A DNA stretch of 64,000 nt, from IMG/VR virus record IMGVR_UViG_3300046047_000272, one strand, 5' to 3'. The DNA comes from a virus (lineage: Duplodnaviria; Heunggongvirae; Uroviricota; Caudoviricetes). The position numbers are program-made. Positions 9,001-12,000 of this stretch are shown here, piece by piece. Within the stretch, counting starts at the first letter, position 1, and the number at the start of each line of letters is the position of its first letter.

Positions 9001-12000
9001 TCACGATAATCGAATTACGCAAGATGCAACCATTTCTCTAATGATGATTCTAATCCGCACTCCTCGGATGCCATAGTCTGGATCAGTAAATTATACTAGT
9101 ACTGGGTCTGAGTCCGATAGACCGGCGGTTCTGATCGTCTTACCGCCATCTATATGTCTCTTCTCAATGAGAAATATGCAGATCACACGAGAACCATGAA
9201 ATGGAATCCATAATCGTGATTACTAGCTCTGTAGAACCAGTGGAGAACATCATATTCTGGCGTGCAGGAGTGATTTTGAGGAACCGCGGCACTGCAACGA
9301 TAGAGCGTGTGCACGAGGAAGCATATCCTAGGAATACGCTCTGCAGGAGCGCCAGGAGTCAAGCCACGCCGACCATCACACCATGCCCACGGAACCACAC
9401 CGAGCCAACGAGTGACTTAGGGAACACTGATCACGCTAATATCCTGGCGTCACATCGGCCTCTCATTCATGACGGTCATGCAGCTTATCCTATAAATCAG
9501 AATACGAGCCCGCCACTAGACGTGATTCTAAGCCGCCGCCCTCGGACGCATCCACGAGGATCAATAAATTACTCGGATACAGGGTTCGCGTCCGATAGAC
9601 CGGCAGTTCTGTCCTTCTGATAGCCATGTATTGGGTCATTCTTGTGATGCAGCAATGATAATCGCTTTTCTAACAGGCGGTCCTCAGAATATCTTTGACG
9701 AGATCATGGTTTTGATGCTATGATGTTTATGATAACGATGACAGAATAGGATTATGGAAAGGGGCGTTCTCATGTTTATATGTGAGCCGTCAACACTCAT
9801 GACCAGTACTCAGCGAGTACACGATGCATCAAGGTCATGGTATGATCGAACATCAAATACGCCATCTCAACAAGCGTTCAGAGAACTGATTGGCCGCGGA
9901 TTAAGTTTGGAGGACGTGCTCAGGGAATTATCGTCAAACAGTCTCGAAGCTATGAGGTCATTATTGAGATCTCGTTTTGGTGAGTTGCAGTTCAGCTTTG
10001 AGGAGCCTCGGTCATTGTCCTGGCGTGATCCTGTGCTTCCCGCTAATGGCGTCATTGATGATGATACGACGTTGACTGTCAGTAAGACGATACGATTCCC
10101 TCATCCATGGCAATGGTCAACGCGAGATGGTGTGGTAACGGTTGACGCTATGACGTTTGATTATGTGTTTAGTGGTTTGAATGATGGACAGGATGTTGCA
10201 TTGGTGTCATCATCGTGGTCTGATGCATGTGATGGTCGGATATACGATGATGATCATCATCAGATAGGCTCTGTTACGATCAGTCCTGCAAACACTCCTG
10301 TTTGGGTGTATGATCAATTCACGATGATGGAGGTTGATATGACGCCTACCGTTCATCAAATCCATAGGATGCTACAAGGAGGATATGATGCCTGACGCTT
10401 TGCAGGATATTCGTTCGATATATGAGGACATGGTCGATCATGACGACACGGCTATGATGGAGTTTGACGCCGCGGTGATGGAGCATGATCGACAATTATC
10501 CAGTAGATTACTGGGATTCTCAAATGATGAATTGAAGATTATCCACGCTGTTTTCTCGGCTGAATACAATCCCATCGATGATAATGTTGAGGATGCCCTC
10601 ATCAGGGCACTTGGTACTATTAGACGTAATGTTCTGCATGATGATCATGCCGAGGACCGTCTAGAACCTATGAGGCCCGTGCTGGTTGATAGGAGTAGGG
10701 TTACGTATCGTAATCATGATGCCCCTACGCCACCTCGATATGATCGTTCCGTGCATCGTCGAGTGATGAGATAGGAGATATAATATGGGTGATCAAAGTG
10801 GGATCCTGCTAGCATTTAGCGGGCATATGGGATCTGGTAAGGACACGGTGGCGTCTACAGTCGTGAATCAGTTACATGGGTCCTCATATCATGACTCCTT
10901 CGCTAAGCCATTGAAGGATGAGGTGAACACCATGATCGCCATGATGAGACGAGTAGACTTAGAACCATCAGCTGCTATTAACATCATTGCTAATCTTCCC
11001 GGACTATTTGACGCCCATGTCGCTGACGAGCTTATCAAGAAATTGTATCCATCGGTGAAGGACGGATCTCTTGTTGATGTGCATGACCGCTCGGATCTTA
11101 CTCGATGGGCATTACAGCATTGGGGCACTGAGGGCCGTCGTAGCGTTGATCCTGATTATTGGGTACGATTAGCCATTGCTGATATTAAGGATCGTGTACG
11201 GGATCAGAATGTATACTTGACTGATGCTCGATTCCCAAATGAGTTACAAGCCGTTCAACAGCTTGGAGGATACGTGATTCGTCTGCAGGTTAGTGAAGAG
11301 GTTCAGGCTCAGCGTATCCTTGATCGTGATGGTGTGGTCATCACTGAGGACATGAAAAATCATCCCAGTGAGACGATGGCTGACGATTACGATGGATTTG
11401 ATCTTATCCTAGACACTGATCATGCTACACCAGAAGAATTATCAGATACGATCATGAATTTCTTACGAGATCAGCATGAACGACAGGACTGTGAGCATGC
11501 TGATACGAGGCATGAACAGCATGAGGAATCGTGATATCTTAACGTTATGAGCGCTATTGTCTATTTTTCCTCAGTGTCTGAGAACACGAAACGATTTGTG
11601 GAGTCCTGTAATTTTGATGGCTTACATGTGTATCGTATACCATTGAGGGCGAATGATGACCGCTTATTAATTCATGAACCATATGTTTTGATTACGCCGA
11701 CGTATGGTGGAGGCGCACCTGGACGATCAGTTCCGGTGCAAGTCAAACGATTCTTGAAGGATCAATCCTCACTCATGAGGGGTGTGATCGCTTCTGGGAA
11801 CACGAATTTTGGAGAGGCATACGCCCATGCGGGTGATGTGATATCAGCGAGATTCCATGTACCCATGCTCTACAGATTTGAGTTACTGGGAACATCTGAG
11901 GATAGACGAATAGTGAGTGATGGCGTCAAACGATTCTTATCTATGCCATCGGCATAATCGTGTGAAGACGTGATATATTCATTGTCCAATGATGATTGGA

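What the first reader, a model, noticed from the sequence alone, without database searches (positions are those of the whole stretch)
9045..9352. Composite repeat unit of about 300 bp (family B, covarying hairpin, family A) present in three full copies plus solo parts
Family B (about 90 bp, with conserved gatcagtaattact and ccgttagaccggcggttctg) is followed about 110 bp later by family A (about 105 bp, with conserved cgcaacgatagagcgtgtgcacgaggaagcatatcctaggaatacgctct).

Full units:
- 9045..9352
- 41453..41754
- 43011..43320

Solo copies:
- A at 8780..8887
- B at 6983..7068 (reverse), 9524..9615 and 43422..43515

In the spacer between B and A, a hairpin sits at the same relative position but uses different stem sequences in each copy: ttctc/gagaa, tcttcg/cgaaga and tcctc/gagga. 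That is compensatory covariation, which implies selection on structure.

All copies are intergenic and same-sense as the downstream plus-strand genes. They could be a structured ncRNA family, promoter or regulatory cassettes, or a MITE.
Basis: seen in the sequence. Interest (0 to 1): 0.75.

Follow-up and report, generated by a model that had tools for sequence, protein, structure and literature searches.

The report
Repeated hairpin modules flanking megaphage RNA-repair genes
A huge bacteriophage carries several diverged copies of a non-coding unit of about 300 bases beside its RNA-repair genes; the unit's core hairpin also occurs, at the matching genome position, in one other distantly related huge phage, so the core is probably a functional signal of a kind not yet catalogued, though its job is unknown.

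Summary
Family A has 4 copies, family B has 6 (one inverted), and there are three full B-spacer-A units. Copies are old (68-88% identical) and non-coding.

The modules differ in how well they are supported:
- **A core:** 93% of its 61 columns are invariant among the three units, against 28% in the spacer. It folds into a 43-nt irregular hairpin (z = -4.6).
- **A in a second phage:** ten A-like copies occur in one other megaphage (IMG/VR, 420 kb). There the apical part of the hairpin is unchanged and the lower stem differs but still pairs.
- **Synteny:** in both phages A lies in the same gap after the Rnl1-type RNA ligase gene.
- **Strand:** the A hairpin is more stable on the + strand in 13 of 14 copies.
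- **Spacer:** it holds two hairpins that keep their position but not their sequence.
- **B:** self-complementary, but its covariation is no better than shuffles. It was found only in this phage.

There is no Rfam match, tRNA, terminal inverted repeat or conserved ORF. Strong sigma-70-like promoters lie outside the repeats.

Best reading (about 40%): strand-specific cis-acting RNA hairpin modules in early or accessory transcripts, spread by tandem duplication and recombination. The main rival is a DNA-level promoter or operator cassette. The function was not tested.

The parts
6983..7071 (-). B6: inverted solo copy of family B, between the HAD_SAK_2 gene and the promoter of the kinase-ligase gene
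   Evidence: Aligns full-length with the other B copies. 80.5% identical to B1 over 118 nt. nhmmer E = 1.7e-26.
8780..8890 (+). A1: family A copy, 150 nt after the stop of the kinase/Rnl1 ligase gene. The core hairpin is at 8835-8877.
   Evidence: Hairpin -18.0 kcal/mol, z = -4.64. Covariance model R1 scores 105.8 bits.
9045..9133 (+). B1: family B copy of full unit U1
   Evidence: Fold z = -0.14.
9161..9173 (+). Spacer hairpin 1 of U1 (uucuc-aau-gagaa)
   Evidence: Sequence; folds; alignment.
9194..9204 (+). Spacer hairpin 2 of U1 (ccau-gaa-augg)
9246..9356 (+). A2: family A copy of U1. Core hairpin at 9301-9343. Outer closing helix CUGGCG/CGCCAG.
9522..9611 (+). B2: family B copy that ends the tandem array, 80 nt upstream of the -35 hexamer of the promoter at 9695
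41449..41537 (+). B3: family B copy of U2, starting 6 nt after the sortase stop codon. It is the only B copy with a clearly stable fold.
   Evidence: Fold -36.2 kcal/mol, z = -5.31.
41565..41580 (+). Spacer hairpin 1 of U2 (ucuucg-ucaa-cgaaga)
41596..41616 (+). Spacer hairpin 2 of U2 (agccua-...-uaggcu)
41649..41759 (+). A3: family A copy of U2. Core hairpin at 41704-41746. It ends 5 nt before the -35 hexamer of the AAA ATPase gene promoter.
43013..43101 (+). B4: family B copy of U3, about 30 nt after the intrinsic terminator of the AAA ATPase gene
   Evidence: Terminator fold with U-run, z = -3.35.
43128..43143 (+). Spacer hairpin 1 of U3 (uccuc-aaugaa-gagga)
43168..43178 (+). Spacer hairpin 2 of U3 (auga-caa-ucau)
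43213..43323 (+). A4: family A copy of U3. Core hairpin at 43268-43310. Outer helix CUGGUG/CACC(C)AG, which differs from A2 by a change on both sides.
43419..43507 (+). B5: solo family B copy, 95 nt after A4 and about 90 nt before the HD-domain gene. Its stems are the most degenerate.
7157..8632 (+). Context gene: polynucleotide kinase fused to an Rnl1-type RNA ligase, bracketed by B6 (inverted) and A1/B1
   Evidence: Pfam AAA_33 plus RNA_lig_T4_1 (2e-33) and phrog_8238. Ortholog in L055 at 52% amino-acid identity.
41837..42907 (+). Context gene: AAA ATPase (phrog_2376), bracketed by units U2 and U3
   Evidence: A Logan contig of this gene breaks inside A3 and B4.
43600..45365 (+). Context genes: HD phosphohydrolase (43600-44061) and kinase/metallophosphatase (44103-45365), downstream of U3 and B5
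   Evidence: 49% identical ortholog in L057.

Best explanation
The unit is a composite of separable non-coding hairpin modules, and they most likely act in the + sense transcript.

**Module A is the functional core.**
- It is a 43-nt irregular hairpin.
- It has a lower stem of about 10 bp, a 3x2 internal loop (GCA/GA), a C-G pair and a 1x1 mismatch.
- Above these sits a 4-bp stem (A/G)GGA/UCCU capped by the hexaloop AGCAUA.
- A strictly spaced 5' extension (GGGAA..GC..GCAACG) precedes it.

**Inferred mechanism.**
- The invariant loops and bulges are read by a phage or host protein.
- That would make A a cis-acting RNA signal for processing, stability or termination control, or a translational operator.
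- It would punctuate the transcripts of the early or accessory genes it brackets: kinase-Rnl1 ligase, AAA ATPase, HD and kinase-phosphatase, and the nucleotide-metabolism genes that follow.

**The other modules.**
- B and the two spacer hairpins are accessory stem-loops specific to this phage lineage, and most copies are decaying.
- The copies arose by tandem duplication and recombination. As dispersed direct and inverted repeats they also offer sites for cassette shuffling.

**Shown versus inferred.**
- Shown: the repeats, the constraint on sequence, hairpin conservation across two phages, strand bias, synteny, and absence of coding.
- Inferred: transcription, protein binding and the regulatory outcome.
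For: **Constraint on sequence**
- Among the three full units, 93% of A-core columns are invariant. The figures are 65% for B, 28% for the spacer and 20% for the tail.
- The copies are otherwise only 68-88% identical.

**A beyond this genome**
- nhmmer and the exact 17-mer GGAAGCATATCCTAGGA find 10 copies in IMGVR_UViG_3300044557_000292.
- Orthologous proteins of the two phages are only 37-59% identical.
- A 57-nt block aligns between the two phages without any indel.

**The hairpin**
- Window copy: -18.0 kcal/mol, z = -4.64. Megaphage copy: -16.1 kcal/mol, z = -2.33, with the same architecture and a different lower stem.
- A covariance model built from the four window copies alone finds all 10 megaphage copies at E = 1e-5 to 1e-3.
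- The same model finds nothing in 0.9 Mb of 49 other phage loci.
- On the resulting alignment, 93.1% of pair cells are paired against 81.6% in shuffles (0 of 500 reach it).
- Six pairs have changes on both sides (5 of 500 reach it). Slid controls give 24-51% paired.

**Strand specificity**
- Pair cells include 30 G.U and 0 A.C.
- The + strand fold is more stable in 13 of 14 copies, -15.7 against -10.2 kcal/mol.

**Synteny and orientation**
- The order is ligase, A, (A), ortholog of 10385-10774, ortholog of 10785-11534 in both phages.
- Another A lies about 480 nt after the stop codon of the AAA ATPase ortholog.
- Nine of the 10 window modules are co-oriented with the flanking genes. In L055 both A copies are co-oriented with the minus-strand operon.

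**Other points**
- Two spacer hairpins keep their position but not their sequence.
- A2 and A4 share an outer helix, CUGGCG/CGCCAG against CUGGUG/CACC(C)AG.
- There is no conserved ORF.
- There is no Rfam family or tRNA.
Against: - There are no transcription data.
- Only two phage lineages carry A, so the cross-phage covariation is in effect one comparison. The A9 alignment was also fitted to the structure. A sequence-only MAFFT alignment with RNAalifold recovered just the 4-bp apical stem.
- Four of the 10 megaphage copies (the TCTAG variants) break the lower helix.
- B shows no covariation beyond shuffles. Five of six B copies and two of three spacers fold no better than shuffled sequence. 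B and C show no clear strand preference in energy.
- Strong sigma-70-like promoters lie downstream of the repeats at 7115, 9695 and 41764. An intrinsic terminator precedes U3. Several copies would therefore reach RNA only by read-through or from a promoter that was not recognised.
- B6 is inverted. Megaphage copy L054:9650-9715 appears to be antisense to its neighbours.
- A related megaphage locus (L057), collinear with window 33.5-47 kb, has short gaps and no A or B. The elements are therefore not needed to express these genes.
Confidence: 0.4

Rival explanations
1. A is a DNA-level regulatory cassette. It would be a promoter for a phage-specific RNA polymerase or sigma factor (possibly hairpin-dependent, as for N4 virion RNA polymerase), or an operator for a phage regulator. 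It would be insulated by an upstream terminator, like a larger version of the T4-type PeSL terminator/promoter cassettes.
For: - In every case that could be judged but one, A is followed by a co-oriented gene within about 60-530 nt. Three or four megaphage copies lie in divergent regions with no co-oriented gene upstream.
- In several megaphage copies a hairpin plus T-run abuts the 5' edge of A, as in CACGG-GAGA-CCGTG-TTTTT-CAGGAAGGGC.
- The HD/kinase-phosphatase genes have no recognisable sigma-70 promoter between the AAA gene terminator and their start.
- The 57-nt block has strict spacing. The core holds the perfect palindrome TCCTAGGA and CGTG..CACG.
- In the megaphage an HTH gene is flanked by two A copies.
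- RNAalifold on a sequence alignment sees sequence conservation rather than structure conservation.
Against: - No -35/-10, sigma-54 or other known promoter layout fits the conserved blocks (read by eye).
- The stem arms vary while the loops are invariant. This is the reverse of what a dimeric DNA-binding protein site shows.
- G.U against A.C cells are 30 to 0, and the + strand is favoured in 13 of 14 copies. This points to a single-stranded, strand-specific form.
- The sigma-70-like promoters present lie outside the repeat.
- No phage RNA polymerase or sigma gene was found in the window.
Confidence: 0.22
2. The units, or A-to-B sub-units, are free-standing small or medium non-coding RNA genes. 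They would be a multi-copy phage sRNA or a structured RNA cofactor that works in trans, for example with the RNA-repair enzymes.
For: - This shares the hairpin, strand and conservation evidence of the best explanation.
- U3 and B5 lie after an intrinsic terminator.
- Megaphage copy L054a, with family C downstream, lies between minus-strand genes.
- A-to-B in the window (95-165 nt) and A-to-C in the megaphage (about 160-450 nt) recur on the same strand.
- The whole of U2 folds with z = -4.07.
Against: - No promoter or terminator delimits any unit.
- U1 and U3 as wholes fold no better than shuffles, z = -1.15 and -1.58.
- No complementary target for the invariant core or for the variable tails was found in the window or in the megaphage loci.
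- Copies differ by 12-32%, which is unusual for a trans-acting RNA apart from its core.
Confidence: 0.15
3. The units are non-autonomous mobile elements, such as a MITE or an IS200/IS605-type palindrome-associated element. In that case the hairpins B and A would be transposase recognition ends, perhaps serviced by an element related to the nearby TnpB gene.
For: - There are multiple dispersed and tandem copies, solo parts, one inverted copy, and hairpins at both ends.
- A TnpB-like ORF lies at 3834-5294.
- The collinear relative L057 lacks the insertions.
Against: - There are no terminal inverted repeats (the 5' end of B against the 3' end of A) and no target-site duplications at the unit borders (read).
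- The copies are old, 68-88% identical, not a recent burst.
- A occupies the same syntenic gap in two phages whose proteins are about 50% identical.
- A and B are separable. The megaphage has A without B.
- The flanks of the TnpB gene share nothing with A or B.
- No tnpA or other transposase was seen.
Confidence: 0.08

Closest known systems
PeSL (promoter-early stem-loop) cassettes of T4-like phages (PMC2839356, PMC4122927)
   Same: - Both are dispersed, conserved, composite intergenic motifs of large lytic phages.
- Both contain stem-loops, flank accessory genes and sit in regions that differ between relatives.
- Direct repeats bracket single genes here as well: U2-AAA-U3, and A-HTH-A in the megaphage. 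They could therefore drive mini-circle-type shuffling.
   Different: - PeSLs are short. They consist of a stem-loop immediately upstream of a sigma-70-like -35/-10 pair, followed by a Shine-Dalgarno sequence and start codon.
- Here the conserved repeat is 300-470 nt and holds no recognisable promoter.
- The sigma-70-like promoters lie outside it.
- The best-conserved part is a hairpin loop rather than promoter hexamers.
RNase III processing hairpins between the early genes of phage T7 (R0.3 to R1.3); comparison from my own knowledge, not tested here
   Same: - Both are a set of related, co-oriented, irregular hairpins with internal loops.
- Both are placed between early genes in a polycistronic region.
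- Both are conserved as structures, with similarity around the internal loop.
   Different: - Total helix length here is about 15-18 bp. RNase III substrates usually have about two helical turns.
- The 17-nt invariant apical sequence shared by two distant phages suggests a sequence-specific reader.
- No cleavage data exist.
Cis-acting phage antitermination RNAs (lambda nut boxA/boxB, HK022 put); comparison from my own knowledge
   Same: - Both are short, structured, strand-specific RNA signals in early transcripts.
- In both, loops and bulges are conserved and stems can vary.
- Both occur in more than one copy per genome.
   Different: - There is no boxA/boxB or put-like sequence. The CGCTCT in window A is not conserved in the megaphage.
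- Several copies lie after terminators rather than before them.
Y RNA / YrlA with Ro60 (Rsr), and other non-coding RNAs linked to RNA repair (reviewed in PMC7824862)
   Same: - Both are non-coding structured elements that are genomic neighbours of RNA-repair genes (ligase, kinase-phosphatase, HAD/HD) in large phages.
   Different: - There is no Rfam Y_RNA or tRNA-like hit.
- No ROT/TROVE domain appeared among the 20 window ORFs scanned.
- A is also found next to genes unrelated to repair.
REP/BIME and other bacterial intergenic palindromic repeats
   Same: - Both are imperfect palindromes repeated in intergenic regions, in both orientations and sometimes in composite clusters.
   Different: - REPs are 20-40 nt and number in the hundreds.
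- These modules are 43-110 nt and few.
- Their core is conserved across phages, and no RAYT-type transposase is in view.

Membership tests
Any Rfam 15 RNA family | Covariance-model score at or above the family's gathering threshold, or at least a low E-value | tested here: not met
   The whole window at gathering threshold gives only 6 tRNAs at 61.7-63.9 kb. Searches at E<=10 and E<=5 over both repeat loci and over megaphage locus L055 give only chance snoRNA or miRNA hits. Six megaphage loci at gathering threshold give nothing.
tRNA / tRNA-like | Cloverleaf detected by ARAGORN or Rfam RF00005 | tested here: not met
   There are no tRNA or tmRNA calls in or near the repeats.
PeSL cassette (T4-like phages) | Stem-loop immediately upstream of a sigma-70-like -35/-10 pair inside the conserved motif, followed by a Shine-Dalgarno sequence and start codon | tested here: not met
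   Promoter-like sites of 10 or more matches out of 12 are at 7115, 9695 and 41764. All lie outside the conserved A and B sequence, and none lies inside it. Definition taken from PMC4122927.
PeSL cassette (T4-like phages) | Copies flank accessory genes at places where related genomes differ | tested here: met
   Units bracket the ligase, AAA and HD/kinase-phosphatase genes. The collinear relative L057 has different genes and short gaps at the same places.
MITE / IS200-IS605-type non-autonomous element | Terminal inverted repeats or transposase-type end hairpins, with target-site duplication or a fixed target motif at precise borders | tested here: not met
   The 5' end of B (TCTAAGCCGCC) and the 3' end of A (GCAGGAGCGCC) are not inverted repeats. 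The flanks of the three units share no duplicated or common target.
MITE / IS200-IS605-type non-autonomous element | Sequence relation to an autonomous element that supplies the transposase | tested here: not met
   The flanks of the TnpB-like gene (3451-3840 and 5100-5960) share only words of 8-12 nt with the units, at chance level. No relative of this TnpB was found in the megaphage loci or in IMG/VR.
TnpB/IscB omega-RNA or CRISPR-repeat-like guide RNA | Conserved scaffold next to the nuclease gene, followed by a variable guide that matches a target | tested here: not met
   The units are not adjacent to the TnpB-like ORF. The variable tails after A have no match longer than 12 nt in the window. 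There is no HEARO or CRISPR-DR hit in Rfam. The resemblance to the Cas12j-2 repeat (sequence from PMC11048056) is reached by 80 of 300 shuffles.
Intrinsic (Rho-independent) terminator | G+C-rich hairpin directly followed by a U-run | tested here: not met
   No U-run follows the A hairpin, B or the spacer hairpins. The scan flags only a weak site inside B3. A true terminator lies upstream of U3.
Structured RNA motif in general (evidence standard of Rfam or R-scape) | Statistically supported covariation in an alignment of independent homologs | tested here: inconclusive
   A hairpin: 6 pairs changed on both sides, covariation score 0.294 against 0.137 in shuffles (0 of 500 reach it). However, only two lineages are involved and the alignment was fitted to the model. 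B: no better than shuffles. Spacer hairpins: only 3 sequences.
N4-type DNA-hairpin promoter | Stem of 5-7 bp with a 3-nt loop and conserved bases, upstream of the start site, used by a virion single-subunit RNA polymerase | not testable with these tools
   The geometry differs: about 15 bp with a 6-nt loop. No polymerase gene could be looked for outside the 64-kb window. The definition is from my own knowledge.

The most novel reading that the evidence does not exclude
The A hairpin would be the recognition element of a dedicated ribonucleoprotein layer of the megaphage RNA-repair module. Options include a structured RNA that recruits, titrates or is itself processed by the Rnl1 ligase, the kinase-phosphatase or the AAA ATPase. 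It could, for example, act as a damage sensor or decoy for host anticodon or ribosomal nucleases, by analogy with Y RNA and Ro60. On this reading A is kept next to the ligase gene in distant megaphages because RNA and enzymes work together.
Probability: 0.1. Interest if true: 0.8.

Novelty: new variant of a known kind. Interest (0 to 1): 0.5.

Why it matters
Megaphages of 400-500 kb are known only from metagenomes, and almost nothing is known about how they organise gene expression. A non-coding element kept nearly invariant between two such phages whose proteins are only 37-59% identical marks a functional signal that annotation pipelines miss.

It sits at the same place beside the RNA ligase in both phages. 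If it is an RNA signal, it gives a handle on transcript processing or control of the anti-defence RNA-repair genes. If it is a promoter, it would define a phage-specific transcription signal.

The repeats also explain why short-read assemblies of this genome break at these sites. They provide plausible recombination points for swapping accessory genes.

Tried and rejected
**Searches that found nothing**
- Rfam at gathering threshold and at permissive E-values, on both loci and on the megaphage loci.
- ARAGORN.
- blastn of 6900-9800 against INPHARED phages.
- The A-core 20-mer in IMG/VR.
- A 22-nt degenerate pattern in metagenome and genome collections.
- A looser 19-nt pattern in metagenomes gave three chance hits with non-homologous flanks.
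- The pattern CAACG-N12-CACRRGGAAGC in IMG/VR gave only the same megaphage plus chance hits.
- The B 16-mer in IMG/VR gave chance hits inside coding sequence.
- Covariance model R1 found nothing in 49 loci of other phages that encode the AAA ATPase.

**Ideas rejected**
- Coding: stops occur in the other copies and frames, and in the megaphage.
- Guide-RNA idea: the tails have no targets.
- Trans-target idea: nothing complementary to the invariant core turned up (the filter on that output was faulty and only part of it was read).
- Link to TnpB.
- Resemblance to the CasPhi-2 repeat.
- Restriction-site decoy idea: CCTAGG, GTGCAC, CTGCAG and CCGCGG are not avoided elsewhere in the window.
- Homology between window B and megaphage family C: nhmmer is not significant.

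**Resemblances seen by eye and not pursued, because nothing supported them**
- Sigma-70, sigma-54 and ECF promoter layouts.
- A K-turn.
- lambda boxA.
- 16S helix 45 and the 23S sarcin-ricin loop.
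Full report
**1. The observation**

Reading the sequence and running repeat finder confirm two repeat families.
- Family A has four direct copies: 8780-8890, 9246-9356, 41649-41759 and 43213-43323.
- Family B has five direct copies: about 9045-9133, 9522-9611, 41449-41537, 43013-43101 and 43419-43507.
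- B also has one inverted copy at 6983-7071.
- There are three full B-spacer-A units.

Profile searches recover all copies at E = 1e-26 to 1e-40 and nothing else in the window.

The copies are old. Full units are 70-74% identical, and B copies are 71-84% identical to each other. Locus 1 is a tandem array in which [A1-tail-B1] and [A2-tail-B2] are 68% identical over 390 nt.

Conservation is very uneven. Among the three full units, the share of invariant columns is 93% in the 61-nt A core, 65% in B, 61% in the 5' part of A, 28% in the spacer and 20% in the tail.

No reading frame is conserved. Stops fall just upstream of the core or inside it in the other copies and frames.

**2. Genomic setting**

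The window belongs to a contig of 491,046 bp. The AAA ATPase of 41837-42907 is found as an identical protein on that contig (JGI) and on a 1.4-kb Logan contig of SRR16378897. That short contig breaks inside A3 and B4. Together with a 7-tRNA array and phage-type genes, this indicates a megaphage.

The repeats bracket RNA-repair genes.
- At locus 1: HAD_SAK_2 (5952-6647) and a kinase fused to an Rnl1-type ligase (7157-8632).
- At locus 2: an AAA ATPase (phrog_2376), an HD phosphohydrolase and a kinase-metallophosphatase.

Downstream of locus 1 come a dNMP-kinase-like gene, NrdI and ribonucleotide reductase. Strong sigma-70-like promoters lie just outside the repeats, in front of genes.
- 7115: TTGACA-18-TATGAT.
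- 9695: TTGACG-18-TATGAT.
- 41764: TTGCCA-17-TATGAT.

An intrinsic terminator (z = -3.35, with a U-run) ends the AAA gene about 30 nt before U3.

**3. A is conserved beyond this genome; B is not**

nhmmer with the window A profile hit a locus fetched through the AAA ATPase homolog. The exact 17-mer GGAAGCATATCCTAGGA then found 10 distinct copies, on both strands, all in one IMG/VR contig of 419,707 bp, IMGVR_UViG_3300044557_000292.

Alignment shows a block of about 57 nt with no indel between the phages: GGGAA..GC..GCAACG-N12-CACG(A/G)GGAAGCATATCCTAGGA(A/T)TA. Orthologous proteins of the two phages are only 37-59% identical, so neutral DNA should be randomised by now.

Further pattern scans of IMG/VR, JGI metagenomes and GTDB genomes found no other carrier. 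B was found nowhere else.

Synteny is conserved.
- Megaphage, minus strand of L055: Rnl1 ligase, A, HTH gene, A, ortholog of 10385-10774, ortholog of 10785-11534.
- Window: kinase-ligase, A1, B1, A2, B2, gene 9754-10395, 10385-10774, 10785-11534.

Another A lies about 480 nt after the stop codon of the megaphage AAA ATPase ortholog. A third megaphage locus (L057), collinear with window 33.5-47 kb, has short gaps and no A or B.

**4. Structure tests**

*A hairpin.*
- RNAalifold on a sequence-based MAFFT alignment of the 14 A copies found only the 4-bp stem (A/G)GGA/UCCU.
- Single-sequence folds nevertheless show the same architecture in both phages.
- In the window the lower stem is UAGAGCGUGU/AUACGCUCUG. 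In the megaphage it is GGCC-G-UGUAA/UUAUA-G-GGUC.
- Both enclose the invariant CA-C-G-(A/G)GGA-AGCAUA-UCCU-A-G-GA.
- The isolated hairpins give -18.0 kcal/mol (z = -4.64) and -16.1 kcal/mol (z = -2.33).

*Covariance model.*
- A model built from the four window copies alone finds all ten megaphage copies at E = 1e-5 to 1e-3.
- It finds nothing in 0.9 Mb of other phage loci.
- On its alignment, 93.1% of pair cells are paired against 81.6% in shuffles (0 of 500 reach it).
- Six pairs carry changes on both sides (5 of 500 reach it). Slid controls give 24-51% paired.

*Caveats.*
- The alignment was fitted to the structure, and only two lineages are involved.
- In the sequence-homology register, part of the stem (CGUGU/AUA(C/G)G) is simply conserved.
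- The four megaphage copies with the TCTAG variant break the lower helix.

*Strand.*
- The hairpin has 30 G.U cells and no A.C cell.
- Folded independently on both strands, it is more stable on the + strand in 13 of 14 copies, -15.7 against -10.2 kcal/mol.

*B.*
- B can form a three-helix hairpin of 25 bp with 90% of cells paired.
- Its covariation equals the shuffles (261 of 500 reach it).
- Only B3 folds significantly (z = -5.3). The others give -0.1 to -1.7.
- There is no strand preference in energy.

*Spacer.*
- A second one lies about 30 nt downstream and behaves the same way.
- With three related sequences this is suggestive only.

*Whole units.* As a whole, only U2 folds better than shuffles: z = -4.07, against -1.15 for U1 and -1.58 for U3.

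**5. What it most likely is**

The data separate the modules. A is under strong, strand-specific constraint. Its loops and bulges are invariant, its stem is variable but paired, and it stays next to the ligase gene in two distant megaphages. This is the usual signature of a single-stranded hairpin read by a protein, and most simply of an RNA signal in the + sense transcripts of these early or accessory genes. B and the spacer hairpins look like lineage-specific stem-loops that are partly decaying. I therefore favour cis-acting RNA modules (processing, stability, termination control or translational operator) at about 0.4. Free-standing ncRNA genes are a related alternative at 0.15.

**6. The main rival**

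The main rival, at 0.22, is a DNA-level cassette: a promoter for a phage-specific polymerase or sigma factor, or an operator.

In its favour:
- In nearly every case that could be judged, A precedes a co-oriented gene by 60-530 nt.
- Some megaphage copies lie in divergent regions with no co-oriented gene upstream.
- In several megaphage copies a hairpin plus T-run abuts the 5' edge of A.
- The HD gene lacks a recognisable sigma-70 promoter.

This resembles the PeSL terminator/promoter cassettes of T4-like phages (PMC4122927).

Against it:
- No known promoter layout fits the conserved blocks.
- The recognisable promoters lie outside the repeat.
- The strand asymmetry and the pattern of variable arms with invariant loops do not suit a duplex DNA site.

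**7. Other readings**

A mobile-element reading (0.08) is weak.
- There are no terminal inverted repeats or target duplications.
- The copies are old, and A is syntenic in two phages.
- A and B are separable.
- There is no link to the nearby TnpB-like gene.

Whatever their primary role, direct repeats around single genes (U2-AAA-U3, and A-HTH-A in the megaphage) and the inverted pair B6/B1 around the ligase gene are ready substrates for recombination. The gene content between them differs from the collinear relative L057.

**8. Comparison with known systems and novelty**

- There is no Rfam family, tRNA-like fold, CRISPR-repeat or omega-RNA relation, and no intrinsic-terminator form.
- The closest known kinds by behaviour are PeSL cassettes, the RNase III hairpins between T7 early genes, and nut/put-type RNA signals. 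The last two comparisons rest on my own knowledge.
- The element fails the defining PeSL feature, a promoter inside the motif.
- I rate it a new variant of a known kind: dispersed, structured intergenic regulatory repeats of large phages.
- Interest is moderate. The cross-phage conservation and the position beside the RNA-repair genes are notable. However, only two genomes carry it, and no functional data exist.

Noticed in passing
window 3834-5294 (+): A 486-aa ORF with a Cas12f1-like TNB domain and transposase PHROG hits, that is, a TnpB-like gene inside a megaphage. Its flanks share nothing with A or B, and no close relative was found in IMG/VR.
   Followed up: partly
window 281-3451, 39157-40587 and 40580-41443 (+): Two LPXTG/SpaA-type pilin-like proteins and a sortase are encoded by the phage. 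This suggests a Gram-positive host and phage-directed decoration of the host surface.
   Followed up: no
window 61736-63931; repeats 61806-61993 and 62776-62917: A seven-tRNA array. The two tRNA-Pro genes sit in a 94-nt tandem repeat (78% identical), and a 44-nt repeat pair lies further on. The array seems to have grown by local duplication.
   Followed up: no
window 14966-15012, 29926-30064, 60269-60407: A third repeat family built around a perfect 18-bp palindrome (TAGGCTCAGAACACGA...TCGTGTTCTGAGCCTA). The loop or stem sequence is swapped between copies. These may be bidirectional terminators.
   Followed up: no
window 8641-8702: A long, nearly perfect hairpin (about 22 bp, -38 kcal/mol, z = -8.15) directly after the kinase-ligase gene, with no U-run, between the gene and A1.
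   Followed up: partly
L050 12515-12640 and 3718-3845; L055 1880-2005 (-); L054 10135-10262 and 11973-12100; L027 12918-13045; L052 5570-5697: The IMG/VR megaphage has a second non-coding repeat family, 'C', of about 125 nt. It is closed by a helix GAUGC-GUUCUA/UAGAAC-CGUC, with UAGAAC/UGGAAU wobble variants (37 G.U cells against 3 A.C cells). It often lies downstream of A on the same strand. It has no Rfam hit and is not detectably related to window B.
   Followed up: partly
L027 11497-11568: Three tandem copies of a 24-bp unit (TTGATAGGCCCAATCGAAGGATCC) lie just upstream of the A-like element that follows the megaphage AAA ATPase operon. The layout is iteron-like or operator-like.
   Followed up: no
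window 8893-8982, 9359-9448, 41762-41851, 43326-43415, and the equivalent stretches in the megaphage loci: The 90 nt after the A hairpin are C-rich and G-poor in all four window copies (C 26-37%, G 12-20%) and in 6 of 10 megaphage copies. This resembles Rho-utilisation tracts, if the region is transcribed in the + sense.
   Followed up: partly
window 5952-8632 and 41837-45365: The RNA-repair gene set is split between two loci about 33 kb apart, each bordered by the repeats. The set comprises a Swiss-army-knife HAD phosphatase, kinase-ligase, AAA ATPase, HD and kinase-phosphatase. In PHROG 8238 the kinase-phosphatase and ligase parts match one 737-residue profile.
   Followed up: partly
L056 (Logan SRR16378897 contig, 1398 bp) = window about 41716-43113: A short-read assembly of the same sample ends inside A3 on one side and in B4 on the other. 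The repeats therefore fragment assemblies of this genome.
   Followed up: yes
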